DNA of 64,000 nt, from the NCBI GenBank assembly GCA_032718475.1, contig JAUCBJ010001095.1:1-64000 (forward strand), in the 5' to 3' direction. The translations under genes were made by a program, and so were the position numbers. Shown here piece by piece: positions 1,967 to 29,765 of the stretch (its first letter is position 1; each line of letters starts with the position of its first letter). The DNA is from Nemertoderma westbladi (Eukaryota > Animalia > Xenacoelomorpha). The notes beneath the pieces are model-generated. The model was given only the letters and a program-made list of their open reading frames with translations. It was not told the DNA's origin and ran no database searches.

Positions 1967-3574
1967 AGGTTTACCGGTCGATCGGTACTTTCAACTTTAT
2001 TGCTTACTGCAATAAAGTCAATGACTGTTATTGTACGCGCTTTTGAAGACCTTTAGCAGTTTAACCTGCCAAAATTTATATGTCTTTTGGTTTATAAATC
2101 GACTCTAGAAGATGACAATATTTAATACCAATAAACACAACATTAGCAGAAGCCAGCCTAGTGCGCGTCCATTCACCCGCTGGATAATCCCGGGAGACTG
2201 GATTCAGTCGGCTTAGATTATTATTGCAGTGAAGCTTACGGTATTGTATTATTCGATTGATCGTTAATAATTAATTTCTGACTAATATTATTCACTTTCG
2301 GGAAATATTAACAGTTCCTTTTAGGACGTGGCGCTCTATCTAAGTAAACAGAGATATGACTTATACTAATCACAACGGTAAGTCGGTAAGGCTTATGATT
2401 CACGTATGAGGCGCATTCTTTAGGAAATGCTTAGTTATCAGCCACAATCATGCACACTACCGGTAACACACAATACTGCTCACTAACTTGCCGACCGTCA
2501 ATGAATTTTATCATATATAAAGAAAATAGCAACGGACCAATGTAGTGCTTATCAAATAGCATTAAATTCAATACACACCACAATAATATAAGTCGCAATC
2601 GCTATATATAACCCGTCTTTCTAACCTGTAGTGTATCAAGAAAATTGGGAAATTTGGGTTCTTTATAAATGTTCTCCAGATAATATTCAATCAACTGATA
2701 TAAAATATGACAACAGTAAAAACATTAAGACGGTAGGTTAAGATATAATATGAACAGATATGTACAGTGATATGTTAAGAATTGTGCCGCCGATTTGATT
2801 TGCTAACAGTCATACGCTCTATAATCTTAAGCCTACTAATGTTTCTTTTTAGAGCCGTTGTTTCTGGCTTAGACAGCAATAACAACAAAGTATCAGTAAA
2901 AAACTGTAAGACTGAACAATCCCAGTATGATCGGCTCAAAGCTCCACATCGACAGAGAGAATCGCTCTGATTGGCTGAAGCCAAACAAAGAACCATGCGT
3001 CCAATGGCTGTTTCCATTTAAGCAACCAGCTGTTAGATGTCGTAATCTGAATCATCACGGCTAAGCTGTGTAAAAGTATTTGCCGTATTGCGGGTTTTTT
3101 GCCTTACCATGTCCGCTAAAACACGTATATAGAAGAATGACTTTTATGTCCGTTAAAAACACCTGTAACGGTACCTTGCGGGCAAGGGGAATATATATAC
3201 AGTTAGAGAACCCTTTTAGAGTATTCCAGCGCCTAGGGGGAAACTGGATTGCGAAGCAAAGGGGCCAGTTATATCCCACAGAAGCTTTTACAGATGGGTA
3301 TGTAAAACCAGCTTATTGTTATGGCTTTATCTCCATTTTTCTGATAATGTTGATTTTTCAAACAGTATTCATTATACATTATGCAGTATATTCATAATAC
3401 ATATTAATAATTACTATAGTTATATTTGATTAAAATAAGTAAATAATATCAAAGACATTGAAAGAAAATAGAAAATAAAGAATTTTGGGTATTGCAATAT
3501 TGCATACACGTAATTATAATATAACCTTAAGTTGTTGAACTATTATTTCTTAACTAAAATACCACAAACATGGG

Positions 3575-5740
3575 TTACGAATGTTTCGCTTCATAGTGGC
3601 TAAACTGCAATGTAAATGAACCACAACCTCGTGTCAATGATCTCAACCTACTAGCGTATCCGAGAGTTAAAGACAAAGACATCTCAGCCTCAATTACCAC
3701 TTCAGTTTCATCGATATACTCAACTTCAAGCACGTTTCCGTGGAGACAAGCGATATCGTCAATGACTTCCACTCTGTAAAGTTCTGGTACTCTGATGCGA
3801 ATAACCATTGTGGGTTCAATAAGAACAGGGTTGCCTTGGGAAACTGCGTTATGGGTTGCGTTAGACGCAGCTGCCGAAATCATCGCCATACTTGTAGACT
3901 TTAACACGGATATCGATTTAACACTTACAAGGATATCAACTACTGGATAACCATTAACAGGACCCTGCGTACAAGCTTCCATTATGCCCGATCTAACTGC
4001 CGCCGTTATATTAGCCGTCTGTTTACTTACATTATCGAGGGTTTCCATATTAATTACAGGAGGTTGTGCCTTTACCTCCGTAGAGGGATCGACACTTAAC
4101 TCAACTTTAACCTTGTGTTTCGTCTCCCCCAACGTTTTATCTAACTCATAATTAACCGTGGCTGTCTTTCTCACAGTTTCCTTATAAGCTACCTGAATTG
4201 GCCCAATATACACGTCCAACTTATAATCATTCAGTAGCTTATGCTTCACTATATCCATATGAAGTTCCCCCATTCCGGTAAGAATAATCTGGTTTGTCTC
4301 AGAATTAACTTTCACATTTAAACTTGGATCTTCCCTACATAGTTTACTCAGAACTTCCATAAGTCGTTTCTCTTTCGATAAAGAAGAAGCTTCTACATGG
4401 CAATAGAATACAGGTTGCGGTAGAACTACGGCGCCAAGGTTGTCCGCTCTAGAACCCAGGTTACATAAAGTATCCCCTGTTCTCGATCTATCCAATCCAG
4501 TCACCGCTATAATACTCCCAGGACCAGCAGTTTCAATTTCCGTACGCTGATTGGCTGACATCCGATACAATTTATAGACCGTCTCCGTTGCAGACTGAGT
4601 CACATTGCGAACCATAAGAGAGGTTGAAATAGTCCCGGAATAAATGCGAACAAAAACAAGAGGTCCAATAGCATCATCGTGGATTATCTTAAATACAAAA
4701 GCTAATAAATCTTTGTTTCTTGATGATTTTAGGTTCTTAATATTTTCCTGAGGCGGTGGCAAATACAAGTTGATAGCGTTCAATAGGGGTTGTATTGCTT
4801 TATTTCTACGCGCCGAGCCGCAGAGAACAGGCGCAACAGATCCGCTACGCGTAGCGATACTCACCGCCTCATTGAGGCGATCCATCGAAAAAATATTCAC
4901 ATCGGTTCTGTAATCGTCGCCGGAAATAATTGCGTCTCCTATTCCGTTGTCGAAGTCCGCTAACACTTCCACTAGCTTTAGACGAGCATCCAAGGTATAG
5001 TTAAAGTTTTCGTGACCTGGTAAAACCGCTTCGCAAACATATTTCGTTCCATCTGTGTCTTTTCTTTCATCCCAAATATATTTTTTCATGGCTACGACAT
5101 CTATAATCCCTTTAAATTCGGCACCTTGGCCAACAGGAAGTTGAATTACTAAAGGAATTTGTGAGAAATTAGACTTCAACGATTCCACAGCTCTATTAAA
5201 GTCGGCGTTATGTTTATCCATTTTGTTTACAAAGACGATCCGAGGTATTCCATATCTGTCAGCTTGTTTGCTGACGGTCACTGTTTGTGCTTCTACGCCG
5301 CGGGAGGCGTCTACCACGGTCACGGCGCCGTCTAGAACGCGGAGACACCGCTCCACCTCCATGGTAAAGTCTATGTGGCCGGGTGTGTCTACAAGGTTGA
5401 TAGAATGGCCGTCCCATCCGAAGGTGACCACCGCTGAGGTTATCGTTATTCCTCGCTCTCTCTCTTCGGCTAGATAGTCCGTAACGGTGTCCCCGTCGTC
5501 GACGTTGCCTAGGTGATTCGACAACCCGGAGTAATACAACATCCTCTCAGTAGTCGTTGTTTTTCCTGCGTCGATATGCGCTATAATTCCGATATTTCGT
5601 GTCCGTGACAATGATTGACATTGTTGAGTGGTTGTTCCTTTACTTCTGGAAGCTATTTGGTGTAACGGGAGGAGAAGCCGGGGTGATAGGTTAATCTGTT
5701 GGACAAAAAGACAATTACTAACACGAATGGTAGACAGCAT
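3575..5740 (-). CDS. GFM2: Mitochondrial ribosome-releasing factor 2 (EF-G2mt), single coding exon
   Basis: 721-aa ORF with translational GTPase motifs AHIDAGKTT, ERERGITI, DTPGH and NKMD. NIGIIAHIDAGKTTTTERMLYYSG and DDGDTVTD match GFM2 rather than GFM1. Basic/hydroxylated N-terminal presequence with no acidic residues; EF-G domains III-V follow. Confidence 0.93.
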   Translation of the reverse strand: MLSTIRVSNCLFVQQINLSPRLLLPLHQIASRSKGTTTQQCQSLSRTRNIGIIAHIDAGKTTTTERMLYYSGLSNHLGNVDDGDTVTDYLAEERERGITITSAVVTFGWDGHSINLVDTPGHIDFTMEVERCLRVLDGAVTVVDASRGVEAQTVTVSKQADRYGIPRIVFVNKMDKHNADFNRAVESLKSNFSQIPLVIQLPVGQGAEFKGIIDVVAMKKYIWDERKDTDGTKYVCEAVLPGHENFNYTLDARLKLVEVLADFDNGIGDAIISGDDYRTDVNIFSMDRLNEAVSIATRSGSVAPVLCGSARRNKAIQPLLNAINLYLPPPQENIKNLKSSRNKDLLAFVFKIIHDDAIGPLVFVRIYSGTISTSLMVRNVTQSATETVYKLYRMSANQRTEIETAGPGSIIAVTGLDRSRTGDTLCNLGSRADNLGAVVLPQPVFYCHVEASSLSKEKRLMEVLSKLCREDPSLNVKVNSETNQIILTGMGELHMDIVKHKLLNDYKLDVYIGPIQVAYKETVRKTATVNYELDKTLGETKHKVKVELSVDPSTEVKAQPPVINMETLDNVSKQTANITAAVRSGIMEACTQGPVNGYPVVDILVSVKSISVLKSTSMAMISAAASNATHNAVSQGNPVLIEPTMVIRIRVPELYRVEVIDDIACLHGNVLEVEYIDETEVVIEAEMSLSLTLGYASRLRSLTRGCGSFTLQFSHYEAKHS

Positions 5741-9273: not shown

Positions 9274-10494
9274 ATGATTGTATCCAGCTCAACTAAATTA
9301 ATACGCTTCTCTCTCCTTACTGGGGGTAATCCACTCCGCAGTATTACATCTAGTTGTATTCTAAAGGCGGCTCAAATAAACAAGAAAGAATCACAACACA
9401 TTAAGTCATCGGCTTACAGAATGGGCCGATACGCACCAGTCGATCACCAGGACTACCGCAAGGTTCTACCAGGACACGTGTTCGAATACTGGCGTTCAGA
9501 TACTCAACACAGGGACGAGTTGATGCGAGACTACGAGACGGGAAAGCGAATGTTAGCCAACATAATGGGCCAGTCGCCAGAAGAAATGGATGAGAAATCG
9601 GTGTCGCGAGCATTAAACTATCTCCTACCCTCGATGCTGTTCGATAAATCTGCACGCCCCGTTATGGAACATCCCGATAAGATATTCCCACCGATCGCAG
9701 CCCTCTCGAACATCGCAGAGACCCAAACCAGACCTTCCGACCCATTCTTCTATAACAACCCGAAAGGTCTTGGCCTCGGCTCCATTCATCACAAAGCCGT
9801 TAAAGAACTCCTTATACTCGATTCGATTGCGTTTTACGCGCGCGACGCCCCACAGCGGCGGATGCAGGTCGACTGGACGCGATTCCGGTTGAAAAACCAG
9901 GAAGAGTTAAAGAACGATGGACTCATTGGGATCGAAAGGAGCGATTACTTGCGGTTTATTGCGGCTCTCATGAAGATAATCAATCACCCGTTCGGTTTAA
10001 CGTCCGCGGAGTTCTTAGACGAATACTTTGTGAGCGTGGAGAGTCGTGGTAAGTACCAGCGGTGTCCGTTGTGTGTAGATCGAGACGGTAGGTTCTACAC
10101 TATAGTGAAGGGGAGACGGAAGAATCAGTCAGCCGAAGTCAGACTGCTCGATAACGGAACGGGGAAGTTCACCGTGAACGGGATGTCCTTCGGCGATTAC
10201 TTTACGGTAGCGGAGGACAGACAGCAGCTCGTCGTCCCATTCACTGTTATAGGCAGACTAGGGGACTTCGATGTGAATGCTGTGTGTCTGGGGGACGGGG
10301 ACGGGTTTGGGACGCAGTCCAAGGCCGGGGCGATAAGGTACGGGATCGCTAGGGGGCTCACTGCCTTCGTTAGTGACGGGGATATAACCAAACTACAGAT
10401 CGCGGGGTTGCTCACGGCCGATTCCAGGTTCAAGGAGCGGTTAATATACGGGACCTACGGGGCGAGACGACCAAAACCATGGCGACCGCGGTAA
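9274..10494 (+). CDS. MRPS9: Mitochondrial small-subunit ribosomal protein uS9m, single coding exon
   Basis: GKRMLANIMG, YLLPSMLFDKSARPVMEHP and an S9 domain (GRRK, GTGKFTVNG, AGAIRYGIA, AGLLTADSRFKER, GARR..W..R). First ATG is at 9274; the ORF track starts at a TTG. Confidence 0.93.
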   Translation: MIVSSSTKLIRFSLLTGGNPLRSITSSCILKAAQINKKESQHIKSSAYRMGRYAPVDHQDYRKVLPGHVFEYWRSDTQHRDELMRDYETGKRMLANIMGQSPEEMDEKSVSRALNYLLPSMLFDKSARPVMEHPDKIFPPIAALSNIAETQTRPSDPFFYNNPKGLGLGSIHHKAVKELLILDSIAFYARDAPQRRMQVDWTRFRLKNQEELKNDGLIGIERSDYLRFIAALMKIINHPFGLTSAEFLDEYFVSVESRGKYQRCPLCVDRDGRFYTIVKGRRKNQSAEVRLLDNGTGKFTVNGMSFGDYFTVAEDRQQLVVPFTVIGRLGDFDVNAVCLGDGDGFGTQSKAGAIRYGIARGLTAFVSDGDITKLQIAGLLTADSRFKERLIYGTYGARRPKPWRPR

Positions 10495-13684: not shown

Positions 13685-13758
13685 ACACATTTACTACAAC
13701 TAAATAGGTTCAATTGTAGGTAATGTACAGTATAAGTTGTTAACAGTAATGGTGGTTG

Positions 13759-14003
13759 TGTAGCGGTAACAGATATCGAACCGTGAGATACTTTCACTTT
13801 CGACGGACAACATACTGCTGTCCGTGTCAGTCTTCATATTACACTCATACCGGTACTACCATTTACTGGTTTTATATATGTACCTACCGGTGCCACACCA
13901 ACTGTCCTGGTGACAACATAGTACATGTTCCTGACTGTGATATATTACTGTATTACGTTGAAATGATGTGAGTCGCGCTAATGCGAGAATCGCGCTCACT
14001 ACA
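13759..14003 (+). repeat. 5' LTR (245 bp)
   Basis: Matches 17961-18205 except for one substitution seen (CCAACTG vs CCAGCTG). Confidence 0.97.
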
Positions 14004-14004
14004 T

Positions 14005-14017
14005 TGGTGACCCAGAC
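14005..14017 (+). promoter_or_regulatory. Primer-binding site, tRNA-Trp-like
   Basis: TGGTGACCCAGAC 1 nt after the LTR, versus the canonical tRNA-Trp complement TGGTGACCCCGAC. Confidence 0.8.
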
Positions 14018-14076
14018 TGACGCAAACGGGTTTGCGTCAATACAGCAAAATACATCTGTTTATACATAACTGCATA

Positions 14077-14799
14077 ATGGCTAACGAGGCAAATGTCAAC
14101 GCGGTTGGAGTTAAACTGCCACACTTCTGGGCCGAAAACCCGTCGGTATGGTTTGCCCAGGTGGAGGCCCAGTTTAGCATCCGGAGGATCGTCGACGACA
14201 CGACTAAATACTTCTACGTTGTCGCCGCTCTGGATCAACCCACCGCCGCCCGTCTACTGGACATCCTCACCGCCCCGCCTTCCGAAGGGAAATACGAATC
14301 CCTCAAGGCTCGACTCCTCGGAACTTTCGCCTTGAGTCGACGCGAGCGCGCCGCGAAGCTGCTGCGGATGCGCGGGCTGGGCGACCGCAAGCCGTCCCAG
14401 TTGATGGACGAGATGTTGGGGCTCCTCGCCGGCCATACTCCGTGTCTGCTGTTCGAGCAGCTCTTTCTGGAACAGCTCCCCGAGGACATCCGGCTCCAGG
14501 TCTCCAACAACTCTTTCGCGGATCCCCGCGCCCTGGCTGCCACCGCCGACGTTCTGTGGCTAGCCAAACAGCAGGGAGTCTCCCAACCAGCCGGATTAAA
14601 CCGGGTGACGAACTCACTACCGACGAAGAACTCCTCCGCGCCGCAACCCACGAAGGCGACCACGAACTCATCCGGTAGGCCTACTGCTCGACCCGACACC
14701 GACGGGTTGTGCTACTACCACGCCCGGTTTGGTAGTGCCGCCAAGCAGTGCCGGTCGCCGTGCAGCTTCCCGGGAAACGCTCCGACCAGCCGACGCTAG
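14077..14799 (+). CDS. gag: Gag
   Basis: ATG at 14077; KLPHFW...[10 protein letters not shown]-terminus and [18 protein letters not shown] (CHCC) knuckle. Confidence 0.93.
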
Positions 14800-14833
14800 C
14801 CGCTGCGTCGACTGGTCGCTACCACCAGCGGGA
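14772..14833 (+). promoter_or_regulatory. -1 ribosomal frameshift signal (slippery heptamer plus stem-loop/pseudoknot)
   Basis: G GGA AAC at 14772-14778 in the gag/pol overlap. Stem CGACCAG-C-CGACGC pairs with GCGTCG-A-CTGGTCG; loop CCGCT is complementary to downstream AGCGG. Confidence 0.8.
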
Positions 14834-17800
14834 CAACCTCCTCTACCTCTGGGACCGAAACTCCGGCCGCCACTTCCTCGTGGACACCGGCGCCCAGGTG
14901 AGCGTGTTTCCCGCCAGCGGATTTGACACCCGTTCCGGTCGTACCGGACCGCCGCTCCGCGCCGTCAACGGATCACCGATCCGTTCCTACGGAACCCGCG
15001 GAGTTCCTCTGCGGTTCAACGGCCGCCAGTTCAACTGGGACTTCGTGATCGCGGACGTCCCCCAGCCGTTGCTAGGGGCGGACTTCCTCTGCGACCACGC
15101 CCTGATGGTGGACGTCAAGGGGCAGCAACTCATCGACATGGAAACCTTCCAGCCGATCCCCCTCCGTTGCTCCTCCTCCACCATCCCAGGAACCCACCCT
15201 CAACTCGCGTCGACAGCCGTAGATCGAGTCTACGCCGACCTCCTGGCGGAGTTCTCCTCCATCACGACGCCGACCTTCTCGGACTCGTCTACTCGCCACG
15301 GCGTGGAGCATTACATCCCGACCGCCGGTCGCCCCGTCCACGCCCGCGCTCGACGACTCCCGCCGGATAAACTCGAGATCGCGCGGGCGGAGTTCAGCAA
15401 GATGGAGGAGATGGGGATTATTCGCCGTTCGAATAGTCCCTGGTCGTCTCCCCTCCATATGGCGCCCAAGCCGGCCGGGGGTTGGCGCCCCTGCGGGGAC
15501 TACCGTCTCCTCAACGACGCCACGACCCCCGATCGCTACCCAGTCCCGCACATCCAGGACTTCTCGGCGCGTCTCGCCGGGGCCACGATCTTCTCTAAGG
15601 TCGACCTGGTGCGGGGCTACCACCAGATCCCCGTGGCCCCCGGCGACGTTCCCAAGACCGCCGTTATCACTCCGTTCGGACTCTTCGAGTTTGTCCGGAT
15701 GCCGTTCGGCCTCAAGAACGCCGCCCAGGCCTTCCAACGCCTGATGGACTCCGTCTGCGCTGGGTTGGACTTCCTCTTCGCGTACCTGGACGACATTCTC
15801 ATCGCAAGCGCGACCCCCGAGGAACACCTCGTACACCTCCGCCAACTCTTCCAACGACTCCAGGACAACGGCCTCATCGTCAACCTGGCGAAGTGCGAGT
15901 TCGGGGTGGCGGAGATCCAGTTCCTCGGACACATCGTCAACGAGTCCGGAGTCCATCCGCTCCCGGACAAGGTGGAAGCCGTCCGCTCCTTCCCTTGTCC
16001 AACCACCACTAAAGGGTTGCGGGAATTTATCGGTATGGTCACGTTTTACCACCGATTTATTCCCGCAGCTGCTGCCACCATGCAGCCCCTTTATGCCGCC
16101 GTCGCCACCAAGGTTAAGGACGTCGACTGGACTCCCGAACTCACCGCCGCGTTCGAGTCCTCCAAGCGGGCCCTCGCGGACGCCACCATGCTCGTCCACC
16201 CCCGCCACGACGCCCCAACCTCCATCACCACCGACGCCTCCGACTCCGCAGTCGGCGCGGCCCTCGAACAGTGGTCCGATGGGAAGTGGCGGCCGCTCGC
16301 CTTCTTCAGCCGCCAACTCCGCCCTCCGGAACGGAAGTACAGCGCCTACGACCGCGAACTCCTCGGCCTGTACCTCGCGGTCCGCCACTTCCGGTATTTC
16401 CTAGAGGGCCGTCCGTTTGTGGCCTATACGGACCACAAACCGCTGACCCACGCGTTCGCCAAGGTCACTGACCCCTGGTCTCCCCGTCAACAGCGCCACC
16501 TGGCGTACATATCTGAGTTCACCACAAATGTACGTCATGTTGACGGGAAGGACAACCAGGTGGCGGACGCCCTCTCCCGCAGTTTCGTGGGCCACCTGTC
16601 GACCCAACTCGGGGTCGACTACACCGCCATGGCGGCCGCCCAGCGGGAGGACAACGAACTCCAGACCCTCCGGAGAAACCCAGGTAGCCTTGACCTGCGT
16701 GACGTCACGTTCATGGAGAAGGACGTCACGCTTCTCTGCGACGTCTCGACTGGCCAACCCCGGCCGCTCGTCCCGAGTTCGTGGCGCCGTCGCGTGTTCG
16801 ACGTAGTCCACTCCCTGTCCCATCCGTCCATCCGCTCAACTCGGAAGCTCATCTCGGAGCGCTTTGTCTGGCACGGCCTCGCCAAACAGGTAACCGCCTG
16901 GGCCAAGGCCTGCGTCGCCTGCCAGACCTCCAAGGTTCAGCGCCATACGAAGACTCCACTGGAGACCTTCACTGTCCCACGTCGTCGCTTCGACCACGTT
17001 AACGTCGACCTGGTAGGTCCCCTCCCTCCATCCCAAGGGTTCACCTACCTCTTCACCATCGTCGACCGGACGACGCGTTGGCCCGAGGCCATTCCGCTCG
17101 CCGACTCAACAACCGAGACCTGCGCCCGCGCTCTCGTCGCCCACTGGATCGCCCGGTTCGGCGTCCCGGCCGAGCTCTCCTCCGACCGTGGCGCCCAGTT
17201 CACCTCGGAGTTGTGGTCCGAAGTCAACCGCCTCCTCGGGACGAAACTCCACCGGACCACGTCGTACCACCCGCAGGCAAACGGTCTGGTGGAACGGTTC
17301 CACCGCTCCCTCAAGGCGTCCCTGAGGGCCCGACTAACCGGCCCCAACTGGGTGGATGAACTGCCCTGGGCCCTTCTCGGCAACCGGACCGCCCCAAAGG
17401 AAGACCTGAACTGCTCCTCGGCTGAGTTGGTGTACGGCTCACCACTAACGGTGCCCGGTGACTTCGTCGCCTCGCCAACCAATCCACCGGAATCCACAGC
17501 CTTCCTTCAGGACCTCCACAAACACGCGAGGCAGTTCGTGCCGACACCAACCTCGCGACACGGGAAACCCGGCTCATCTGTGCCTCCTCAGCTGAGTACA
17601 AGCGAGTACGTCTTTGTGCGTAATGACGCACACCGCGGCCCCTTACAGCGGCCCTACACTGGGCCGTATAAAGTAGCGGAACGGGGGCCCAAAACATTCA
17701 TCGTCGAGGTGGGTGGTCGGCGCGAAACTATATCCGTCGACAGACTAAAACCGGCCCACCTCGCGATCGACCAGCCCGTTGCAGTGGCCGTCCCGCCACG

Positions 17801-17939
17801 CCGTGGTCGACCACCCACTGCCAGTACCACCCCGGCTGAACCTCCTACTCCCTCACCCCACCAAGCGGAAACTCCGTCCGAACTTCCCGTAACTACTCGA
17901 AGTGGGCGGGAAATCCGACAGCCGAAGTATTTTTTTTAA
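14772..17939 (+). CDS. pol: Pol polyprotein (protease, RT, RNase H, integrase), expressed by frameshift
   Basis: LVDTGA protease, YLDD RT, TDAS RNase H, HHCC plus DDE integrase, GPY motif; uninterrupted frame. Confidence 0.96.
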
Positions 17940-17949
17940 TCACGGTTCT

Positions 17950-17960
17950 GGGGGGAGTAG
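17950..17960 (+). promoter_or_regulatory. Polypurine tract
   Basis: GGGGGGAGTAG immediately before the 3' LTR. Confidence 0.9.
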
Positions 17961-18205
17961 TGTAGCGGTAACAGATATCGAACCGTGAGATACTTTCACT
18001 TTCGACGGACAACATACTGCTGTCCGTGTCAGTCTTCATATTACACTCATACCGGTACTACCATTTACTGGTTTTATATATGTACCTACCGGTGCCACAC
18101 CAGCTGTCCTGGTGACAACATAGTACATGTTCCTGACTGTGATATATTACTGTATTACGTTGAAATGATGTGAGTCGCGCTAATGCGAGAATCGCGCTCA
18201 CTACA
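17961..18205 (+). repeat. 3' LTR (245 bp)
   Basis: Direct repeat of 13759-14003, followed by TSD GTTG. Confidence 0.97.
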
Positions 18206-18831: not shown

Positions 18832-19802
18832 TTAAATAGACTAATTAAAACTTACATACTAAGGTGGTTTGATACTTTTTGTTTATTTACATATTTATAA
18901 ACTTTCTTAAAGTATAAGTGTGGTATGTGGTAGTAAAACGTAGCCTACAGGTTATACCCCACCACTGACATCTCCCTCGAGTCTTATTATTATTATTATT
19001 ATTAATATTTCATAACAACATGCGCACAAAGCGCTATAGTTGAAAATTGCCCGGTTCAGATTGTGCACGGAATACTTAACATAATAATGAACATACAGTA
19101 GGTTATAATGTATGTATAGGTACCGAAAAAAGAAACCGTGAAAACCCAATCAATTTCAATTTATAACTAATATTATTATACAATACCAGACTTTTATAAT
19201 AACACATAATATCTACTAGGATTACATTAATAATTATGGAATTAATAAATGAAAACTGCGGTAGTAGCTCTAATTTATATAATACTTTCAAGGTAGGAAT
19301 TCAGACCGACGTCTAAATGCCTTAAAAACATATATGCTTAATTGCTTTGTTTTGTTCTGAGATGGTAAAGCTAATAACTCAAATAATTTACCAATTGTAG
19401 GTAATCTTGTGTATTTAGCGGGAAGAAATTTCTCCCGCAGGGGTTTATAAAGCGGACACTTCAACACGAAATGGTATTCGTCCTCAACCTCCCCCAGATC
19501 GCAAAGTTGGCACAATCTCTCGCCACGCGGAATATTGTGCCAACGACCGAGCTCGACCTGCAGACGGTGAGACGAACATCTCAACTTTGTTAATGTCCGA
19601 CGCAGGGTTGGGTAACCACTCATATAGTTTAGATACTGCTCCATACCAAACGAGTGTTTAACATACCACAAACTACGTGAGGTTGAGGTACTAGCTAAAT
19701 TAGTCCACCATGTTTGAATGAAATTATCTTTTACTATTTGCGATAGCTGACTTATAAGTATTTTAGAATCGGGAACAAATTGACTATCCCATATGTAGTT
19801 TA

Positions 19803-20217
19803 ACTTAGGTTTTGGATTAACCGGAACGACGTTTTACGTGGCGTATTCATAATTACAGGATTAATAAAGGCAAGGAAGGGTCTTTCACCACGTGGATATA
19901 TAAAAATTGAAGTTAATTATTTACCGTATGGCCATTTCACCCTCGCGGGCGTCTTCAGCGGTATATTCAATTAAAATCGCGTTAAAATATAATTAAATTT
20001 AAAAATTAGTTCACAATTTAAAAGTTTAGGGTACCTGCCAAGCAGCATTTACAGTAAATAATGGGAAATTTACATTGAAATAATTAGGGGACTAATTAAA
20101 ACAGTGAAACGTTGTGAGTACCGGTAGTGCAGTTGCATAGTTGTGGTGGGGCTACAGCGCTACAGCCTAAGCACTGACTGCCTGTCATCAGGCTGCATAC
20201 GTGTACCGTGTGTACGG
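19803..20217 (-). mobile_element. 415-bp insertion with 11-bp TSD, Penelope-like pseudo-LTR or retrozyme-type
   Basis: TATGTAGTTTA duplicated at 19792-19802 and 20218-20228. Removing the insert restores the LINE frame GAGLNYIWDSQFVPDSK. No TIRs; contains a hammerhead motif. Confidence 0.8.
19922..19963 (-). ncRNA. Minimal type I hammerhead ribozyme
   Basis: Minus strand: TACCG CTGAAGA C GCCC-GCGA-GGGT GAAA TGGCCAT A CGGTA. This gives stem I TACCG/CGGTA, core CUGAAGA/GAAA, stem II with a GNRA loop, palindromic stem III ATGGCCAT and an AUA cleavage triplet. Confidence 0.82.
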
Positions 20218-23200
20218 TATGTAGTTTAGTCCTGCGCCATACAACAAATCACGTACATTCGAGACCCAGTTAGTTGTCCCATGTTTTTCAGAGTCTTCCA
20301 ACAGTAAAAGGTAAGCCTGTTTCACTAAGCGGGAGTCTGGCAACCCTAGAATTTTCATCCAATATTTAATAATACGGGTACGCCTAGATATAAACAAGGG
20401 AAATACTCCTGATTCACCATACACTAAACAATCAGGAGTGCTCGATTTAATCCCTAACATATACTTCAAAAATTTAAGCTGTACACGTTCGCAGTGGTGC
20501 GCAGAGTTAAATCCCCATACCTCACTACCATTCTCGAGAACAGAGGCCTTACGAGTGTGTTGAATATATGCAGTTTAAGGTCGACCGAAATATTTGGGAA
20601 CTTGTGTAAGTACTTTAACGTTGCAAAGTATGCCTTCATACCCTTTTCCGCTAATAAAGACTGCGCATAATTAAAGCTACCCCCAGTGCTAAAAGCTATA
20701 CCTAAGTATGTATATGACCCAGAGACCTCCAACACATTCCCCTGGAACATCCACTCCTCATGCCCGGCTAGCACTCCACCTTTACGGAATACAATAATCT
20801 TGGATTTTTTTTATGTTAACATTTAAGCCCCAATACCTAGAGTAATCGCCAAGAACGTCAAGCGCCATCTGGAGGCCATTTACAGAATTGCTAATAAGTA
20901 CTACGTCGTCAGCGTACAATAAAAGGAAGAGTTTTAACACACCAACATCAATACCTTCAACTCCCCTGCCAGCTAACTCCGATTCAAGATCATTTATGAA
21001 CAGTGCGAACAGTAGAGGAGAGAGGCACTCACCTTGCCGCACTCCAACCAGACATTCAAACTCTGTATAAAATGCACCCAGTACTCTAACCCTAGATTTA
21101 GCCGCAGCATACATACTTTGGATAATTTTTAGTACTTTACCCGAAAATCCCAGCGCTATTAGCTTACACCATAGCGCAGACCTATTTTATTATAGAGTCG
21201 AACGCCTTTTGAAAATCAATAAACGCACAATATAGTTTTTTATGCGAGCCGTTGTTAAGTTTATGGTTAATTATTGCATTAAGAATAAATAATTGATCTA
21301 TTGTACTGTACCCGTGTCTAAACCCAGCCTGCGCCTCAATAATTACACCAAAACAGTCGGCCCACCACTGTAACCTATTATTAAGTATAGTTGTGAAAAT
21401 TTTGCCTAGGACATTTAGTAAAGAGATCCCCCTAAAGTTGTCGGGGTCATCGGTACCGCCCTTACCCTTATATAATGCTATAATGTTTGCCAGTCCCCAC
21501 TGTTCCGGATAATAACTAGACGATAACACTGCATTAAATATTGCAGTTAATACAGTTACGAGATGTTTAGAACCAACTATAAAAACTTCCGGACCACAGT
21601 TGTCAGGGCCCGGGGATTTGCCACGTTTAAGCTTGCCAATGACGTCAAGTACTTCGTTCTCGGTAATGGCGTCACCCAGCATATTATCAAAAATAACTTT
21701 ACTCTCAGAAAACTCTAATGTAGGTTTAGCCTGAGTGCCCGCATCTACAAAGACGAAGTCATTCCCAGCATTAAGCTTACGAAAGTGTTCAGACAGCACA
21801 TTCAAATTGCAGCCCTTATAGTCTGCAGAATTTCCCGAAGCCGCCTTCAGTAATTTCCAAAATTTCTTAGAGTCGGCCTCACGATATTCCGCTAACTTAT
21901 TGGATGCCTGTCGGTTGTAAATAAACTTAGCGCTCCTGAGGGATTTTGCATATGTACCTCTTGCTCGTGCAAGATGACCATACGTAACATCGCCAGGGTC
22001 AGTTTTAAAACGGTTTAGAGCCTGTCTGAAAATTATTTTTGATTGGCGGCATAACTCATTGAACCAGGGGTGATGAGATTGCGGTAAATTTGCATCAGTA
22101 CCGCCAGGGGGCGTCTTTACATCTGTGCTTTTACTACAAACGTCATTTACAATGTCCGTAAATTTATTTACTAAACTATTAACCTTTGATTGTGAGTATT
22201 TGCCGTCGATAGCAGCATCCAGAAGGGAGTCTAGTTCAGACACAACTTTGGGTGATTCCAAAACATGACAAAACTTACTTTCGGAACGAGTATTCCAAAC
22301 TTTCTTAAGTATTGTAGCTGTATTTGGATCATTACCATTGCCGTCATTAATAGGATTATCCATACCTAAGCCAGCAACCACATTTGGCGTTACAAGTAAA
22401 TTTCCTAAAGAACTGGTAGAGACGGTCTTGTTAGCAAAACCAATCGTTAAAATACTGTGTTTAGAATACTCGTTGGGGCAGTCAATGGAGAAAAAATTAA
22501 TATAACGCGCTAACCCAACTTTAGCCAGTAAGTAATCTATGGAAGAGTGCCCAGTCTGTCCGGAGTGCAGGTGAGTATGAAATGTAAATTCACCAATTCC
22601 CTCGTCATTCCCTAATCTGCCATTCATAATTCTAAGTCCACTACATTTACACAGTTGCAATAATCTACGCCCATACGCATTACATACTTTGTCCCTGTTA
22701 ACCCTGAAGCGAGGTAAATGTCCCCAATCTTCAGAGGAGTCATATACATAGTCTAGTGCGTAGTAAATTACTAATCGGGTCGAATTCAGAATCCTCGTCT
22801 ACATAGTCCAGTCTATTACCAGTTCTACTATTCAGGTCACCTAAAACAACAAAATCCATGTCATCATAGAAACTAATACTTGACTCCACTACATCGAACA
22901 TGGATATACTGTCACCCCCGTGAGAGGTGGAACCCAACGGTGGAATATAAATCGCACAAATTACAAGATCCCTGTCAAAACCGAAACGGTCCTTGTTTAA
23001 ACGGAGCCAAATCGTGTCTTCCTGTAAAAAATCATTACACTGTGTAATATTATTAGCATAAATTTCTTTATAATAGATTACAATACCACCGCTATACCGC
23101 TTTGCAGCGCGATGTTTAAACTTCCTAGAGTTAATTATCGTCTTATAACCAGTACATTCAATGTTTACCAAAGAATTAGGGCTTAACCATGTCTCCGAGC

Positions 23201-24668
23201 AAATAAATAAATCATACTTTGATACGGTAGAGAAGAAATCTGGATCGGATATTGAAGAAGTTAGACCTTCCACATTTAAGTAACCAACTAAAAAATTGTT
23301 TGGTAAGGTTACATTGTCAACCGGTAGCGTGGAAGCATCACCATGGTTTTTTGGTGTAATGAAATCTAATCGGGTGGGAATCCCACTGTTTTGGCAAAAC
23401 CCTGAGATGCTGGTACAATAATACTAGTGCTTGGCGGTTCTACACCGGCATCGCTACGCACCGGGGGACTAGCGGAGGGTTGATAAGCACAATTTCGCAA
23501 CTCGTATCTACTATTAGCACCAGCTGCAGTAACCACATTTTTGGAACGTGACTTACTGCTTTTTGATTTCCCCTTTAACTTTATTTTTAATCTAGCCCCA
23601 CCGGATAACGGTTCTAAATCAGCAGTATCAGAACTATTCTCGATCATACTGTTAAATAGCGCAAACCTATTCTGAGTAGAAACGTTTACCATCACATCAC
23701 TACTATAACATATACTTATTCAGTAGCCTTGACTCACCTCCCCTCCACCTCCCTAATTTTTCTTAAAAACAAGAGTGGAGCCTTCGGTGCTTCGTGTTTC
23801 ACGTTTACTTTAATTTTATGACATTGGGTATTGGGTAGAACAAGTTTCAGTTAAACAGTATTAACCCTCTACTGCCCCCCGTTCCACCAGTGTAACGTAC
23901 CAGACACAGTGGCTTCCTGCAACTCTAAAAGTCCTATTGCGCGGAATCTAATAGGTTAAAATCGTAGCATAGATGTTAGGCAATTCAAAAAACCATAGGT
24001 TTCCTTTTGGTGGAAAATTTAGAATTAGTTGACTTATGGTATGTTTTATAGCAAAAGTCCAGATTACTCCAATACAACTCGCAATACCGGTCTTTGACCC
24101 CAAAAAAATATTTTTGACTGTGAAAGTATACTGAGTATCCAAAATATCAAAAATGGATATTTTCATAATATTATTGAAAAACCGTATGCTGCACCAGTGC
24201 AACATTGGATTGGGCAGTTACAGTATAGTAATTACATACGTAATATTGTTATGAATCGGCATACATAGTTGCAATTGTAGGAATTGGGGCGTAATTATTA
24301 GAGCACCCGGTCTCTCATTTCAGTGTCCGGTTACAAATCGGAGCACCTGTTTACATATCAGAGCAGCACATGGTTACGAATTTCAGTGGCAAGTTACAAA
24401 TTTAAGTATCTGGTAACGATTTGTGGCGTGCCTGTTTATGAATCTCGTGTTGCGTGCAACGAACCCTTAAGATGTTACCAAAAAATTATTTTTGAACTTT
24501 TTAAAATTATGCTTATATAGGAGATAATTACAACTAAAAATGTTTTCTGAAAAGTAATAATTCGGTAAGTAAAGGGTGATGGTATTACATTACTTATCTA
24601 TTACCGCTACATACAGCTGTAAAATTCAATCTAGAGTTAAGAATCATATGTGTTATAACAACAGGCTG

Positions 24669-27600
24669 TCAATTAGTCTTATTACTTCTTTCTTCAATAA
24701 CATCTTTGATTGTTTTAAGCCGCTTCAAATGACCCACCCCCAAACGGTGGTCCTGCGCAAGTTTCAGCGAAGATAACGCCACATCACAAAAGCTGCAGTC
24801 GAACGAGAGTCCCTCCGTTGAACTGAATGCATCTGGGTTTAATACAGGATCCTTATCCAAATATTCCTGCACGTAGGCCAATAACTTCATCCGTTTAGCT
24901 CCTACGGGTTTGGACTCGTTAGCCGATGATACTGGGTTACCCGTTGCTGGGTCACCTCTTGCTGGTTTACCCGCTTTGGTCTGTGGATTCTCATCGGATT
25001 TCAACAACTCCGCCACATACTTCTTCTTTTTTAGGTGAGTCTTGCTTGATAGGTGTTGTTGTACCGCATCTGGGTATTTGCATACACTCGCGCAGAGCTC
25101 GCACACCCATATATAGGAGCCATCCACGGACCTCATACTCCGCAAACTGCTGGTCTCGCTAAGCGCACCGGCACACTTTGGTATGGATTCCGATTGGGGA
25201 ACAACCATTCGCCCAGTAATGGCCTTCGTAAGTTTTACGCGCTTCGCGTGTTTCATCCCGTTGAAATGGGTATCAGCCATTTCCTTAGAGTTGAATCCAA
25301 TGTTACAAACTGTACAATATTTGAAGTATTTCTTGGGGATATCGAGGAGCTCCGATTCATTCACTACGGATGACTTCTCATCACCTTTACCGATTATTTC
25401 AGTGACGTATTTCCCTTTCCTATTAGAAATACCAGATGTTGATGGCATTCCTGTGTCTCCTCCTTTAGGATTTGTCACAGGTACAACGTCAACATCCGTA
25501 TTCTTTGATGAAGCTTTACTTTTCACTCGGTTATTCGGATCTCGATAAAATGACTCTAACTGTTTAAATCGATCTTCCACTTCCAACGGTGGGCCATCAC
25601 TATAATCTGAGTCATCTCTATATATTCCGTGTGGGTCGGTTTCATTCATTCCTATTATTGCATCTTCACGCGAACTCAGACCAGATGATTTGGGTTTTAT
25701 AGACCTATCATATCGTTCTCTTTCCCTTGAGAAATCTCGTGTTTTCATAGATTGACCATATAGTTCTCTCTCTCTTGAGAAATCTCGTCTTATCTGAGAA
25801 TTCTCGTAACGTTCGTTATCTCTTGAGAAACCCCTGGTTCTCATATAGTTATCATGTGCAGGTGGTTCTTCGTCTCTTGAGAGATCTCGTTTTCTCATTG
25901 ATCTATCATATGTATCTATATCGCTTGAGAAATCTAGTGTTCTCTGAGATTTATCATATGGTACTACATCTCTTGAGAAATCTCGTTTTCTCATAGATCT
26001 ATCATATGGTTCTCCATCATTTGAGAAATCTCGTGATGTTCTCTGAGATGTATCATATGGTTCTCCATCATTTGAGAAATCTCGTGATGTTCTCTGAGAT
26101 GTATCATATGGTTCTACATCTCTTGAGAAATCTCGTTTTCTCATAGATCTATCATATGGTTCTCTATAACTCGAGAAATCTCGTGTTCTCTGAGATTTAT
26201 CATATTGTTCTACATCTCTTGAGAAATCTCGTTTTCTCATAAATCTATCATATGGTTCTCTATCACTTGAGAAATCTCGTGTTCTCTGAGAATTATCATA
26301 TGGTTCTCTATCTCTTGAGAAATCTCGTATTCTCATAGAGCTATCATATGGATCTCTATCACTTGAGAAATCTTGTTTTCTAACAGAGCTATTATAAGGT
26401 TCCCTTTCTCTTGAGAAATCTTCCGTTCTGCTATATTTATTATATGGTTCGATATCACTTGAGATATGTCTGGTTCTAATATATTTATCATATTGTTCTA
26501 CATCTCTTGACAATTTCCGAGAACTTTCTGGTCTATAAACTACAGGATCTATATTTACTGGTATTTCAGGATATCTCAATGATTCATCCGATTGCCTCCT
26601 GCACAGTGATGAGGCTCTCACTCCGACAGATCTGTCATTAAATTCTACATCTTTTATAAACTTTGGTGTTCTTATATTCCTATCTCTATCTCTAACCCTT
26701 AGCAAATCTTGATTAACGATACGTTTCTCCCAAGACTCGTTATATTCAGATATATCTCTGGTTCTTAAAAAACTATCACTAAGTTTCTCCGATTCCCCCC
26801 ATGAACTCCCTGACATTTGATACGACCCTTCACTTGTATTTGTACTAGGTGACCTCTCTCGAGTTCTTTTAGATCTATGGTGTGATACTGCAACGGAATC
26901 GTATGACGTATCTCTGGTTCTCTTTCGACAAAATCGTTCTATATCCATTGAGGTCTCAGTGGTTTCTTTTGGCAAATCATATTGTTCTCTACTTGTTAAC
27001 CTGCCTTTAGCTCGTTGTGATCGCGGAAACGGATCCCTATTAATCCCAGACGACTTTCTCTTTGATTTTAATTTAATCTGATGTTCTGATTGTCGATATC
27101 TTAACGTGTCATTGATTATTATTCTTGCATTCTTCCCTTCCATAGTAATCAGTTCATTCCTCTGACTAAGTCCATATTTCCGACTCGTTAATAAATGTGT
27201 ATCAATCGTTTTTGGTATTGCAGAGTCGCCTCTACCATCCACATAATACATGATATCATTGTCAATGTTAGATGCAGTACTGCTATTACCAGATCTGCTG
27301 ATTTCCTTTGAACTAACAGGTAAACCTAATAATTTATTCTTGTAAGCTGAGGTATAAAAATGTGTAGATTTGCTTTCATTTGGGTCAATAGGTTTACCAC
27401 CATGACTATCCTTACAGCTCTGACTGGTCTGTACTTCAACCCCCAAATTAACTTCGGGTACCGGTAAGCTATCACCTGGAATACACGGATTTGTATTTCC
27501 CGGAATGCACAGACCTTTATTTCCCAGAATACACGGATCTTTATTTTCCGGAATACACGGATATTTATTTCCCGGAATATACGGATCTTTATTTCCAGGA

Positions 27601-28424
27601 ATACACGGATCTTTATTTCCATCTTTATTTCCCTTGTAATAAATATTCGATGAATGAATCTCATCATCAAATACATGAAATGGAGTTAACGATATAATAT
27701 TTGAATTAGTGTTGGTTCTTCCACTGACATTTACTGATTCAATAATATTACTTCCAATTAAAGATACATTATTTACAGTTTCCATATGATGCTCAGAGTG
27801 AAGAGCACGATCTTGGTGATTAATCACCTTTTCTTTATAAGTTTCATTATCTTGTGCCGATTCGTTGAATCTCGGAACCAAAATCTGGTAATTTGCTACC
27901 CGTACATCACTGTCATGTCTCATATTATTTAGCGGCTCTGGACAATTATTTTTTTCTTCATCAATTAATAGACACCCCTCTTCCTCTTGCAGTTCATCAT
28001 ATTGTGATATAGATTTAAATTGCATAGCTCGCTGCAATAAATTATCTATAGATGAAGCGAGATTCTGTGCGCCGCCAGTTAATTCATCACCCTGTATGTT
28101 CTCACTAGGTAGATTATCAATATCGTATGTTATAGAACTGAAACCCCCAGGTTCTTCACATGCAGGACTTTTGCTGCCATTGATGTCACATTGCCCATAA
28201 TGAGAGCTAAAGTCCTGTACAGAAGATTTGGAAGGGTGTAATAAGCCAGTTGTAGCTGATGTAATCTTCTGGTGAACAACGGTACTCTTTGCGCTTTGTT
28301 CAGATTCTTCCAGTGTGTGATTTCCACTCGATCTTAGCCACTCGATTTGTTCCTGTATCAACTTATGTTTCTGTAATAAAGTAAGATACTGTTTTTTTTT
28401 CACCTCAGAATCCCCCCTATCCAT
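24669..28424 (-). CDS. 1251-aa low-complexity protein with three C-terminal U1/matrin-type C2H2 zinc fingers, single coding exon
   Basis: CTVC..HFNGMKH, CELC..HLSSKTH and CSFC..HRLGVGH. The long uninterrupted frame is maintained through two coding tandem repeats. Confidence 0.85.
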   Translation of the reverse strand: MDRGDSEVKKKQYLTLLQKHKLIQEQIEWLRSSGNHTLEESEQSAKSTVVHQKITSATTGLLHPSKSSVQDFSSHYGQCDINGSKSPACEEPGGFSSITYDIDNLPSENIQGDELTGGAQNLASSIDNLLQRAMQFKSISQYDELQEEEGCLLIDEEKNNCPEPLNNMRHDSDVRVANYQILVPRFNESAQDNETYKEKVINHQDRALHSEHHMETVNNVSLIGSNIIESVNVSGRTNTNSNIISLTPFHVFDDEIHSSNIYYKGNKDGNKDPCIPGNKDPYIPGNKYPCIPENKDPCILGNKGLCIPGNTNPCIPGDSLPVPEVNLGVEVQTSQSCKDSHGGKPIDPNESKSTHFYTSAYKNKLLGLPVSSKEISRSGNSSTASNIDNDIMYYVDGRGDSAIPKTIDTHLLTSRKYGLSQRNELITMEGKNARIIINDTLRYRQSEHQIKLKSKRKSSGINRDPFPRSQRAKGRLTSREQYDLPKETTETSMDIERFCRKRTRDTSYDSVAVSHHRSKRTRERSPSTNTSEGSYQMSGSSWGESEKLSDSFLRTRDISEYNESWEKRIVNQDLLRVRDRDRNIRTPKFIKDVEFNDRSVGVRASSLCRRQSDESLRYPEIPVNIDPVVYRPESSRKLSRDVEQYDKYIRTRHISSDIEPYNKYSRTEDFSREREPYNSSVRKQDFSSDRDPYDSSMRIRDFSRDREPYDNSQRTRDFSSDREPYDRFMRKRDFSRDVEQYDKSQRTRDFSSYREPYDRSMRKRDFSRDVEPYDTSQRTSRDFSNDGEPYDTSQRTSRDFSNDGEPYDRSMRKRDFSRDVVPYDKSQRTLDFSSDIDTYDRSMRKRDLSRDEEPPAHDNYMRTRGFSRDNERYENSQIRRDFSRERELYGQSMKTRDFSRERERYDRSIKPKSSGLSSREDAIIGMNETDPHGIYRDDSDYSDGPPLEVEDRFKQLESFYRDPNNRVKSKASSKNTDVDVVPVTNPKGGDTGMPSTSGISNRKGKYVTEIIGKGDEKSSVVNESELLDIPKKYFKYCTVCNIGFNSKEMADTHFNGMKHAKRVKLTKAITGRMVVPQSESIPKCAGALSETSSLRSMRSVDGSYIWVCELCASVCKYPDAVQQHLSSKTHLKKKKYVAELLKSDENPQTKAGKPARGDPATGNPVSSANESKPVGAKRMKLLAYVQEYLDKDPVLNPDAFSSTEGLSFDCSFCDVALSSLKLAQDHRLGVGHLKRLKTIKDVIEERSNKTN
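25700..26510 (-). repeat. Coding tandem repeat, about 51 bp (17 aa, RDFSRDxEPYDxSxRx), roughly 15 copies
   Basis: TTGAGAAATCTCGT...ATCATATGGTTCT recurs at about 51-54 bp spacing. Confidence 0.9.
27475..27632 (-). repeat. Coding tandem repeat, 24 bp (8 aa, GNKDPCIP), about 6-7 copies
   Basis: GGAATACACGGATCTTTATTTCC repeated. Confidence 0.9.
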
Positions 28425-29765
28425 ATCCTCCTGTTACCATTCAAGTTGAACTTGAATATTTTATTACAAATCTGTTTAAGTTTATATATATAACAATAAT
28501 ATCTAAGAATGTATAAATATAATTTAACAGCGGAAACTATCTGATTAGGCTATATAAACGACTCTACGAATTAATTAATTTCTTAAGAGGCCTAGACCTA
28601 GAATACGGAATTAGTATGGTTATATGACAGCTGACCACCCCCCCCCCCCCCCCCCCCCCCCAGAACTACAGTGAAATAGAGTGAGTCAGTACAGGCAGAC
28701 AGGTAAGGTATAGTATCCTCAGTTAGTAAGTAGAAGTTAATGGCCTGACCTTTAAAATTAATAAAATAAATTAAGGTTACGGGCATTACAGCGGCGGATA
28801 TTTCTAATCAAAAGAATAAACGATAAGAATACAGGTTACAGTTTTATTGTTGCTCTGCTTGACTGCTTGAGGGACTTTCGTTTTTAGTTTTAGTTAGAAA
28901 AGCCAGCCCTGGGTAACAGACGTTTCGGTATAAGACTACTATTTAAGGCTACCTACGTCTAGGACGTTTGGGCCCAATGAGTGAATTATATAAGATTTGC
29001 TTGTGGGACGTAGCCAGAGATTCACTTACTACCTAGAACGCTAGAAGCTATATAGTATAGAAAAATAAGATTTGCAATAAACTAAATTATTGCGGGATAT
29101 TGTTCGTCTAACTGTTAATTTGCGCTATGCTCCCTTCGCGTTCAAGATGTTCGAATATCGAATATACGCGATAATAGGCCTATATGATACAAATAATATA
29201 TGTTCTTATTGTTTTTTTCTGTAATCTAACTCTAAATCATACCTTATACTTCTATGTTTTAAACAGTATTATCTTGTGGGGTTCTATCACATTTAGGCAC
29301 AGTGACAAACACCTTTCCCCAGTGGCCATTTTTGGACCGATTTCTCAAATTTCACACAGCAGTGCACTCCCTGACCTATGTGTAACTTGATAGAAAAAAA
29401 ACAGTCACGTCGCAGTTTTTGGCAAGTTGCTAGCAAGGGGAGAGAGGTTAGCAACAACAAGTTGCAGTTCGTTGCGTTCCTTGGTAACTGTGCCCAGAAG
29501 CACACAACCGTCAAACCAATCGTGGCATGGCTTCAAGTTGCCCGGAAATTCAAGCGGGATGACGCGAGCGAGAAAGTTGCAATTCTTCCAATAGGTTTAG
29601 TTGAAATTGTGGCCCATACAGCCATACTTGTTGCATGTAATTATAATTTTTAGTTAATTTCATACTTTTAAATAATAAAACTTAAAATATAATTATGTTG
29701 TGAATTACTTTACAGTAATTTGTCTCGGCATTTTATACTAAGTACAGTATTATTCATGTAATCAA

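What the first reader, a model, noticed from the sequence alone, without database searches (positions are those of the whole stretch)
19922..19963. Minimal hammerhead ribozyme with loopless palindromic stem III
Seen (minus strand): TACCG-CTGAAGA-C-GCCC(GCGA)GGGT-GAAA-TGGCCAT-A-CGGTA. All core nucleotides are present, with one extra base before stem II, a GNRA tetraloop and self-complementary stem III ATGGCCAT. Known: such minimal type I hammerheads occur in Penelope-like element pseudo-LTRs and metazoan retrozymes, and are proposed to cleave as dimers. It lies in the sense orientation of the host LINE, so it could cut read-through transcripts (inference).
Basis: partly seen in the sequence, partly recalled or inferred. 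Interest (0 to 1): 0.75.

Follow-up and report, generated by a model that had tools for sequence, protein, structure and literature searches.

The report
Minimal hammerhead in Penelope-like fragment
The motif is a real miniature hammerhead ribozyme sequence, predicted to cut RNA only as a pair, carried by a 415-base piece of a repeated jumping element (likely Penelope-like) that landed inside another jumping gene; it is an ordinary new example of a kind described in 2014.

Summary
The 42-base motif is exactly as described and is beyond chance (0 of 300 shuffled windows give its equal). It does not belong to the LINE around it. It lies in a 415-bp insertion (19803-20217) bounded by an 11-bp target-site duplication; the empty LINE site is assembled in 3 of 4 public runs. 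The insertion is a 5'-truncated copy of a multicopy family with a fairly fixed 3' end, four inverted junctions and a 34-nt tail, all hallmarks of Penelope-like element (PLE) pseudo-LTRs. A sister family keeps the core and changes one stem I pair on both sides. An unrelated contig with the same core and stem III octamer lies about 40 nt behind a GIY-YIG frame, in inverted arrangement. This family's own RT/endonuclease frame was not seen. Cutting of LINE read-through RNA here is unlikely: the motif is alone in 64 kb, the active fold costs 7-9 kcal/mol in context, and the LINE copy is already broken. Verdict: new member of a known kind (Cervera and De la Pena 2014); low interest.

The parts
19922..19963 (-). 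Minimal type I hammerhead motif (stem I 5 bp, core, extra C, stem II 4 bp + GCGA loop, palindromic stem III, AUA triplet)
19928..19935 (-). 8-nt self-complementary stem III (2 bp + 4-nt loop as monomer; 8-bp duplex of -11.3 kcal/mol as dimer, predicted)
   Evidence: same octamer in L046
19926..19927 (-). Predicted cleavage site (between A17 at 19927 and C at 19926)
   Evidence: hammerhead numbering applied; not tested
19803..20217 (-). 415-bp 5'-truncated copy of a multicopy element, likely a PLE pseudo-LTR plus tail
20218..20228 (.). Target-site duplication, 5' side; its first 5 bases are also shared with the element family (microhomology)
   Evidence: D6; family matches to 20222, then runs on unlike
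19792..19802 (.). Target-site duplication, 3' side
   Evidence: D6; empty-site joint 19791->20218, 11 letters fit both sides
19803..19835 (-). 33-34-nt 3' segment, likely the PLE 'tail': two kinds of joint in other copies break at 19835
   Evidence: table 5 (goes back 34; opposite strands 19835/20038)
20050..20062 (-). 13-nt stretch predicted to pair with 19916-19928 and cover the cleavage site
   Evidence: (I8); not exceptional by the energy control
19288..23719 (-). Host LINE copy (endonuclease-like part, RT, C-terminal zinc finger), broken by frame changes and by this insertion; ends approximate

Best explanation
The motif is a minimal type I hammerhead sequence inside a 415-bp, 5'-truncated insertion that is likely the pseudo-LTR and tail of a Penelope-like retroelement family, and at this locus it is likely a silent passenger. 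Shown: the motif, the insertion with its 11-bp duplication, the empty site, the multicopy family, its inverted joints. Inferred: a PLE RT/GIY-YIG protein nicked an AT-rich site in a LINE copy, began reverse transcription at the tail of the element's RNA, copied through the uncut hammerhead, stopped after 415 nt and joined the 5' end by a 5-nt microhomology. Predicted: in the parent's partial-tandem transcript two hammerheads pair through the palindrome and cleave slowly after AUA, probably with protein help; a lone copy like this one would not cleave.
For: Insertion and empty site: 11-bp direct repeat; joint 19791->20218 in 3 of 4 runs (X1, X2, X3; X4 does not cover the LINE flanks); LINE homologues P0012, P0013 and P0014 stop at 20218-20227 and resume at 19803-19794 within 3 residues. 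Family: summed contig depth rises from 340-600 at the 5' end to 3000-3700 near 19870-19906 in X1-X3, then falls to LINE level below 19796 (the tool warns that depth is no copy number). 4 of 7 listed joints are opposite-strand joints and 1 goes back 34 nt, matching the inverted pLTRs and 30-40-bp tail described in PMC8557442 and PMC3846280; TSDs of 8-10 bp and microhomology 5' joints are described in PMC3846280. Motif: extra base between 9 and 10.1, short stem I, palindromic stem III as in PMC4209133. Of 16 substitution rows in 19875-20005, 1 touches an invariant core base (one contig). X4 record 28 matches only 19926-19959 and its two loose ends give a 4-bp stem I with the second pair changed on both sides. 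Of 49 metagenome loci with the same core and octamer, 1 (L046) has both stems; it has two inverted copies, one about 40 nt behind a GIY-YIG frame (PF01541, E 5.4e-05, above cut-off). In context the active fold costs 7.4-9.1 kcal/mol against 4.4 for the 42-mer alone.
Against: No RT or GIY-YIG frame of this family was seen: the 415 bp have no such frame and the window has no GIY-YIG match (best E 2.7); the 600 nt by which one contig runs on upstream (X4 record 27) could not be read. L046 shares no alignable sequence with the insertion at E < 0.01, so it is an analogue, not a close relative. The 10.1-11.1 pair is G-U. One X4 contig breaks the palindrome at 19929. The depth peak over the motif is two-sided in X2, X3 and X4 but not in X1. 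No cleavage or expression data. No listed contig spans the filled site.
Confidence: 0.85

Rival explanations
1. The insertion is a stray monomer of a tandem non-LTR retrozyme (150-450-bp units cut by the hammerhead into circular RNAs and re-inserted).
For: Size (415 bp) and low GC fit the 150-450-bp range (PMC7229834, passages); no coding frame in the insertion; a 2026 preprint derives such retrozymes from PLE pLTRs and counts solo monomers (10.64898/2026.07.22.740005, part 1 of 5).
Against: 0 of 7 listed joints is a unit-length head-to-tail joint; the family runs on past 20222 with different sequence for about 600 nt in one contig; depth shows a 5'-truncation gradient rather than a flat unit; no tandem repeat here.
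Confidence: 0.1
2. The hammerhead works at this locus: read-through RNA from the LINE is cut at 19927/19926, as a monomer or in trans with transcripts of other copies, silencing or re-ending the LINE RNA.
For: Sense orientation to the LINE; intact core; the family is abundant, so trans partners could exist; AUA triplets occur in active natural hammerheads (PMC1636495, abstract).
Against: No second motif in 64 kb; stem I probability about 0.002 in the 415-nt fold; twice the folding cost (about 15 kcal/mol) exceeds the palindrome duplex gain (11.3); min-HHR monomer inactive and dimers weak in PMC4209133; no cleavage without protein in PMC11167929; the LINE copy is already broken.
Confidence: 0.04
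3. The motif is a chance match with no relation to ribozymes.
For: 48 of 49 metagenome loci with the same core and octamer have no stems, so the letters alone arise by chance; the 42-mer folds no better than shuffles (z -0.47); Rfam gives no hit.
Against: 0 of 300 shuffled windows match it in full; a sister family shares only the motif and compensates stem I; the context is the one known for this motif.
Confidence: 0.01

Closest known systems
Minimal hammerheads (min-HHR) of metazoan PLE pseudo-LTRs, subtype with a small palindromic helix III (Cervera and De la Pena 2014, PMC4209133)
   Same: Type I topology, 4-5-bp helix I, extra base between 9 and 10.1, palindromic 15.2-16.2 region, dispersed single copies in truncated elements, pairs on opposite strands in inverted structures.
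   Different: Helix II is 4 bp (7-8 bp in Schistosoma, 6 bp in D. virilis); pair 10.1-11.1 is G-U instead of the conserved G-C; the carrier's ORF is unseen.
Poseidon element of Anolis carolinensis (Frangieh et al. 2024, PMC11167929)
   Same: Hammerhead in the pLTR upstream of a 30-40-nt tail; AT-rich target; copies made from uncut RNA.
   Different: There the ORF starts inside the hammerhead and protein-assisted cleavage was measured; here no ORF start is established and nothing was assayed.
Metazoan non-LTR retrozymes (Cervera and De la Pena 2020, PMC7229834; preprint 10.64898/2026.07.22.740005)
   Same: Type I hammerhead in a short, AT-rich, non-coding mobile unit.
   Different: No tandem unit found; the copy is a 5'-truncated part of a longer element with inverted joints and a tail.

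Membership tests
Type I hammerhead ribozyme | Core C3 U4 G5 A6 N7 G8 A9 / G12 A13 A14 A15.1 / U16.1 H17 | tested here: met
   core list as in PMC3088659
Type I hammerhead ribozyme | Core-adjacent pairs in stems I, II and III | tested here: met
   G-C (stem I), G-U wobble (10.1-11.1), A-U (15.1-16.1)
Type I hammerhead ribozyme | Self-cleavage after H17 | not testable with these tools
   needs an in vitro assay
PLE min-HHR | Extra nucleotide between 9 and 10.1 and palindromic helix III | tested here: met
   C at 19951; octamer 19935-19928; features from PMC4209133
PLE min-HHR | G10.1-C11.1 pair | tested here: not met
   G-U here; no change listed at 19939 among the family's contigs. A consensus trait in PMC4209133, not part of its descriptor.
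PLE min-HHR | Compensatory changes across copies or families | tested here: inconclusive
   one two-sided change in stem I read from the loose ends of one contig; three two-sided differences in stem I of the unrelated L046; no full alignment possible
Penelope-like element | PLE-type RT with GIY-YIG endonuclease in the same element | tested here: inconclusive
   absent from the 415-bp copy and from the window; upstream family sequence not readable; present beside the look-alike motif in L046
Penelope-like element | 5' truncation with a common 3' end | tested here: met
   depth gradient and drop below 19796
Penelope-like element | Inverted 5'-truncated copies next to the main copy | tested here: met
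   4 of 7 listed joints are opposite-strand
Penelope-like element | Optional 30-40-bp tail | tested here: met
   2 of 7 joints break at 19835, 34 nt from the 3' end; reading it as the tail is inference
Penelope-like element | Partial tandem (pLTR-ORF-pLTR) | not testable with these tools
   no genome held; short contigs only
Non-LTR retrozyme | Head-to-tail tandem units each with a hammerhead | tested here: not met
   single copy in the window; 0 of 7 listed joints of unit length; units longer than the laid stretch would be missed
Non-LTR retrozyme | Abundant monomeric circular RNA | not testable with these tools
   no RNA run was listed

The most novel reading that the evidence does not exclude
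Genomic copies of this family record hammerhead cleavage in vivo: two distinct contigs stop matching at 19927, one base from the predicted cut, one of them at an explicit inverted junction, as expected if reverse transcription ran off a ribozyme-made 5' end; and single-locus contigs carry the 3' tail as 50-51-nt repeats, as if the telomerase-like RT had re-used the tail template. A genome-wide pile-up of 5' ends at 19926/19927 would be direct evidence that a PLE minimal hammerhead cuts during retrotransposition.
Probability: 0.08. Interest if true: 0.6.

Novelty: new member of a known kind. Interest (0 to 1): 0.16.

Why it matters
As it stands it adds one more family to the thousands of PLE minimal hammerheads known since 2014, with a clean empty-site proof of insertion and a fixed G-U pair at 10.1-11.1. 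It would matter more only if copy ends in this species showed that the ribozyme cuts in vivo, which is open: PMC11167929 found cleavage only with protein, not needed for insertion in vitro, and no RNA reads ending at the site.

Tried and rejected
Rfam at E <= 10 over 6 kb and over 461 bp: no hammerhead model hit; the library does not catch this minimal form. No whole genome is held, so copies could not be counted. No RNA holder listed: no evidence on expression either way. Metagenome pattern scan: 48 of 49 loci were stemless chance matches and none aligned to the insertion. An upstream 13-bp helix over the cut site looked like a designed off-switch (19 of 1000 shuffles of the upstream 254 nt reach its duplex energy, picked after seeing it), but the cost of the active fold is not unusual (9.1 against 7.5 +- 2.6 kcal/mol; 46 of 200 shuffles reach it): rejected as a selected switch. 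A second CTGATGA near 20191 has no matching hammerhead (not a hit). An ATG at 19850 opens a frame to the 3' end, but the letters that follow in other copies (table 5c) close or shift it, so no ORF start is claimed. No histone stem-loop family hit behind the motif. Host placement: the two mitochondrial proteins are not in the collection by exact sequence; RRF2mt is 42-45% identical to the best 120 hits, which are animal proteins where named, so only 'likely a divergent animal' is claimed. No earlier finding by sequence or place.

Full report
Observation. It has a 5-bp stem I, the full core, one extra C, a 4-bp stem II with a GCGA loop, an 8-nt palindrome that includes A15.1 and U16.1, and A at position 17; the predicted cut is between 19927 and 19926. 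A descriptor search found it as the only type I hit on both strands of the window. In 300 shuffled windows there were 18 loose hits, 1 with stems as long, and 0 with the palindrome too (strict limits taken from the motif itself). A degenerate core pattern gave 1 match and 0 of 100 shuffles. Rfam has no matching model at E <= 10, and the monomer folds no better than shuffles (z -0.47), as expected for a motif with no stable stem III.

It sits in its own insertion. The surrounding LINE (RVT_1 in two pieces; 27-55% identical homologues) is interrupted between 20218 and 19802. An 11-bp direct repeat lies at 19792-19802 and 20218-20228. Three LINE homologues stop at one repeat and resume at the other within 3 residues. 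Contigs of 3 of 4 public DNA runs (X1, X2, X3; X1 and X3 are one sample) join 19791 to 20218, skipping 426 bases with 11 fitting both sides. So the insertion is 415 bp (19803-20217) plus a target-site duplication. No listed contig spans the filled site, so whether it is polymorphic is unknown.

The insertion is a truncated copy of a repeat family. Summed contig depth rises from 340-600 at the 5' end to 3000-3700 near 19870-19906 in X1-X3 and falls to LINE level below 19796 (the tool warns that depth is no copy number, so only 'multicopy' is claimed). Family contigs match to 20222 and then run on with other sequence, one of them for about 600 nt: the copy is 5'-truncated and shares 5 bases with the target at that joint. 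Of 7 listed joints, 1 is the empty site, 4 join opposite strands (19835/20038, 19862/19927, 19865/19919, 19865/19970), 1 goes back 34 nt from 19835, and 1 skips 144 nt. Inverted 5'-truncated copies and a 30-40-bp tail are described as PLE traits (PMC8557442, passages; PMC8969392, passages), with 8-10-bp TSDs, microhomology joints and insertion into a LINE in rotifer PLEs (PMC3846280, passages). The window copy differs from all covering contigs at 4 listed places in 20037-20156, so it is young or from another individual.

The motif is kept. Over 19875-20005, 16 substitution rows are listed; 5 fall in the motif, and 1 of these hits an invariant core base (A13, one contig, depth 54 of 1742). Loop II varies: substitutions at 19944-19945 and four kinds of one-base insertion at 19941-19942, so the GNRA loop is not a kept feature. 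Depth drops at the 5' edge of stem I in all 4 runs; on the 3' side it drops in X2, X3 and X4 but not X1. One X4 contig (101 nt, depth 227) matches only 19926-19959; its two 33-nt loose ends give a 4-bp stem I in which the second pair is U-A instead of C-G. Against: one X4 contig breaks the palindrome at 19929, and one decayed contig lacks 5 bases at 19928. The 10.1-11.1 pair is G-U with no change listed; PMC4209133 calls G-C highly conserved there, while PMC3088659 reports even U-U in natural hammerheads (passage).

An outside analogue. A metagenome scan for the core plus the same octamer gave 49 loci; 48 lack stems, which shows that the letters alone are not enough. L046 has a 3-bp stem I and 5-bp stem II in two inverted copies, one about 40 nt behind a 218-aa frame with a GIY-YIG domain (E 5.4e-05, above Pfam's cut-off): the inverted PLE arrangement. 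It does not align with the window's insertion. This family's own coding part was not seen, which is the main gap in the assignment.

How it likely works. The isolated motif favours the dimer (active dimer -31.9 against 2 x -11.3 kcal/mol; palindrome duplex -11.3). In its 415-nt context stem II forms (p 0.98) but stem I does not (p about 0.002), because 20062-20050 pairs with 19916-19928 across the cut site; the active fold costs 7.4-9.1 kcal/mol. That cost is not unusual (46 of 200 shuffles of the upstream flank reach it), so I do not claim a switch. Published work agrees with low activity: a min-HHR monomer did not cleave and dimers cleaved weakly (PMC4209133, parts 1-2 of 4 read); the Anolis PLE hammerhead cleaved only with protein, was not needed for insertion in vitro, and reverse transcription started at two sites that bound the tail (PMC11167929, parts 1-2 of 4 read). 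The simplest history, inferred: nick at an AT-rich site in a LINE copy, priming at the tail, copying through the uncut hammerhead, early stop, microhomology joint.

Comparison and novelty. It works like, and by anatomy is, a PLE minimal hammerhead of the small-palindromic-helix-III subtype; membership of the carrier in PLEs is likely but lacks the ORF test. Tandem retrozymes (PMC7229834, passages; preprint 10.64898/2026.07.22.740005, part 1 of 5) are the lesser rival. PMC1636495 was seen as abstract only. No supplements were opened; the supplementary alignments of PMC4209133 may already show G-U at 10.1-11.1. I make no claim that this family is absent from print. The scan's own index holds 37 earlier findings with these words in at least 11 genomes, unchecked notes that only show how common the catch is. 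The host is likely a divergent animal. Score: real, well supported, ordinary; interest 0.16.

Noticed in passing
window 19802-19835 (in run contigs, tables 5 and 5c): At single-locus depth, contigs carry the 34-nt 3' segment again after 16-20 purine-rich letters, in three or more variants: a 50-51-nt repeat of the tail region. Unexplained; not a consistent reading frame.
   Followed up: partly
window 19927: Two distinct contigs (X1 record 5 = X2 record 12 = X4 record 25, and X3 record 20) stop matching at 19927, one base from the predicted cut; other contigs stop at 19919, 19942-19943, 19962-19976 and 20038, so no enrichment is shown.
   Followed up: partly
window 13755-18205: Young LTR retrotransposon: 249-bp LTRs 99.2% identical, DUF7041 frame and an open 1067-aa RT-RNase H-integrase frame, GC 62-64% against about 37% in the host.
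   Followed up: no
window 3575-5740 (-), 9274-10494 (+), 24669-28433 (-): Mitochondrial ribosome-releasing factor 2, mitochondrial S9 and a 1254-aa zinc-finger protein with 48-nt and 24-nt repeats are each one unbroken frame with no intron, unusual for an animal; RRF2mt is only 42-45% identical to its best hits.
   Followed up: partly
window 38000-63000: A large complex repeat array with units of about 1.5 kb, a 5.6-kb duplication at 98% identity, 4-nt microsatellites and blocks of 10/20-nt repeats; no Pfam hit for four of its frames.
   Followed up: no
L046 292-326 and 1045-1079: A PLE fragment in a metagenome contig: GIY-YIG frame, hammerhead with the same stem III octamer, and an inverted second copy; a 7-nt stretch just upstream is complementary to the core.
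   Followed up: partly
window 20204-20218: The 5' end of the insertion holds a small hairpin whose arms have the same five letters as the two arms of hammerhead stem I (D4 and I11); predicted pairing with the hammerhead is nil. Probably chance.
   Followed up: partly
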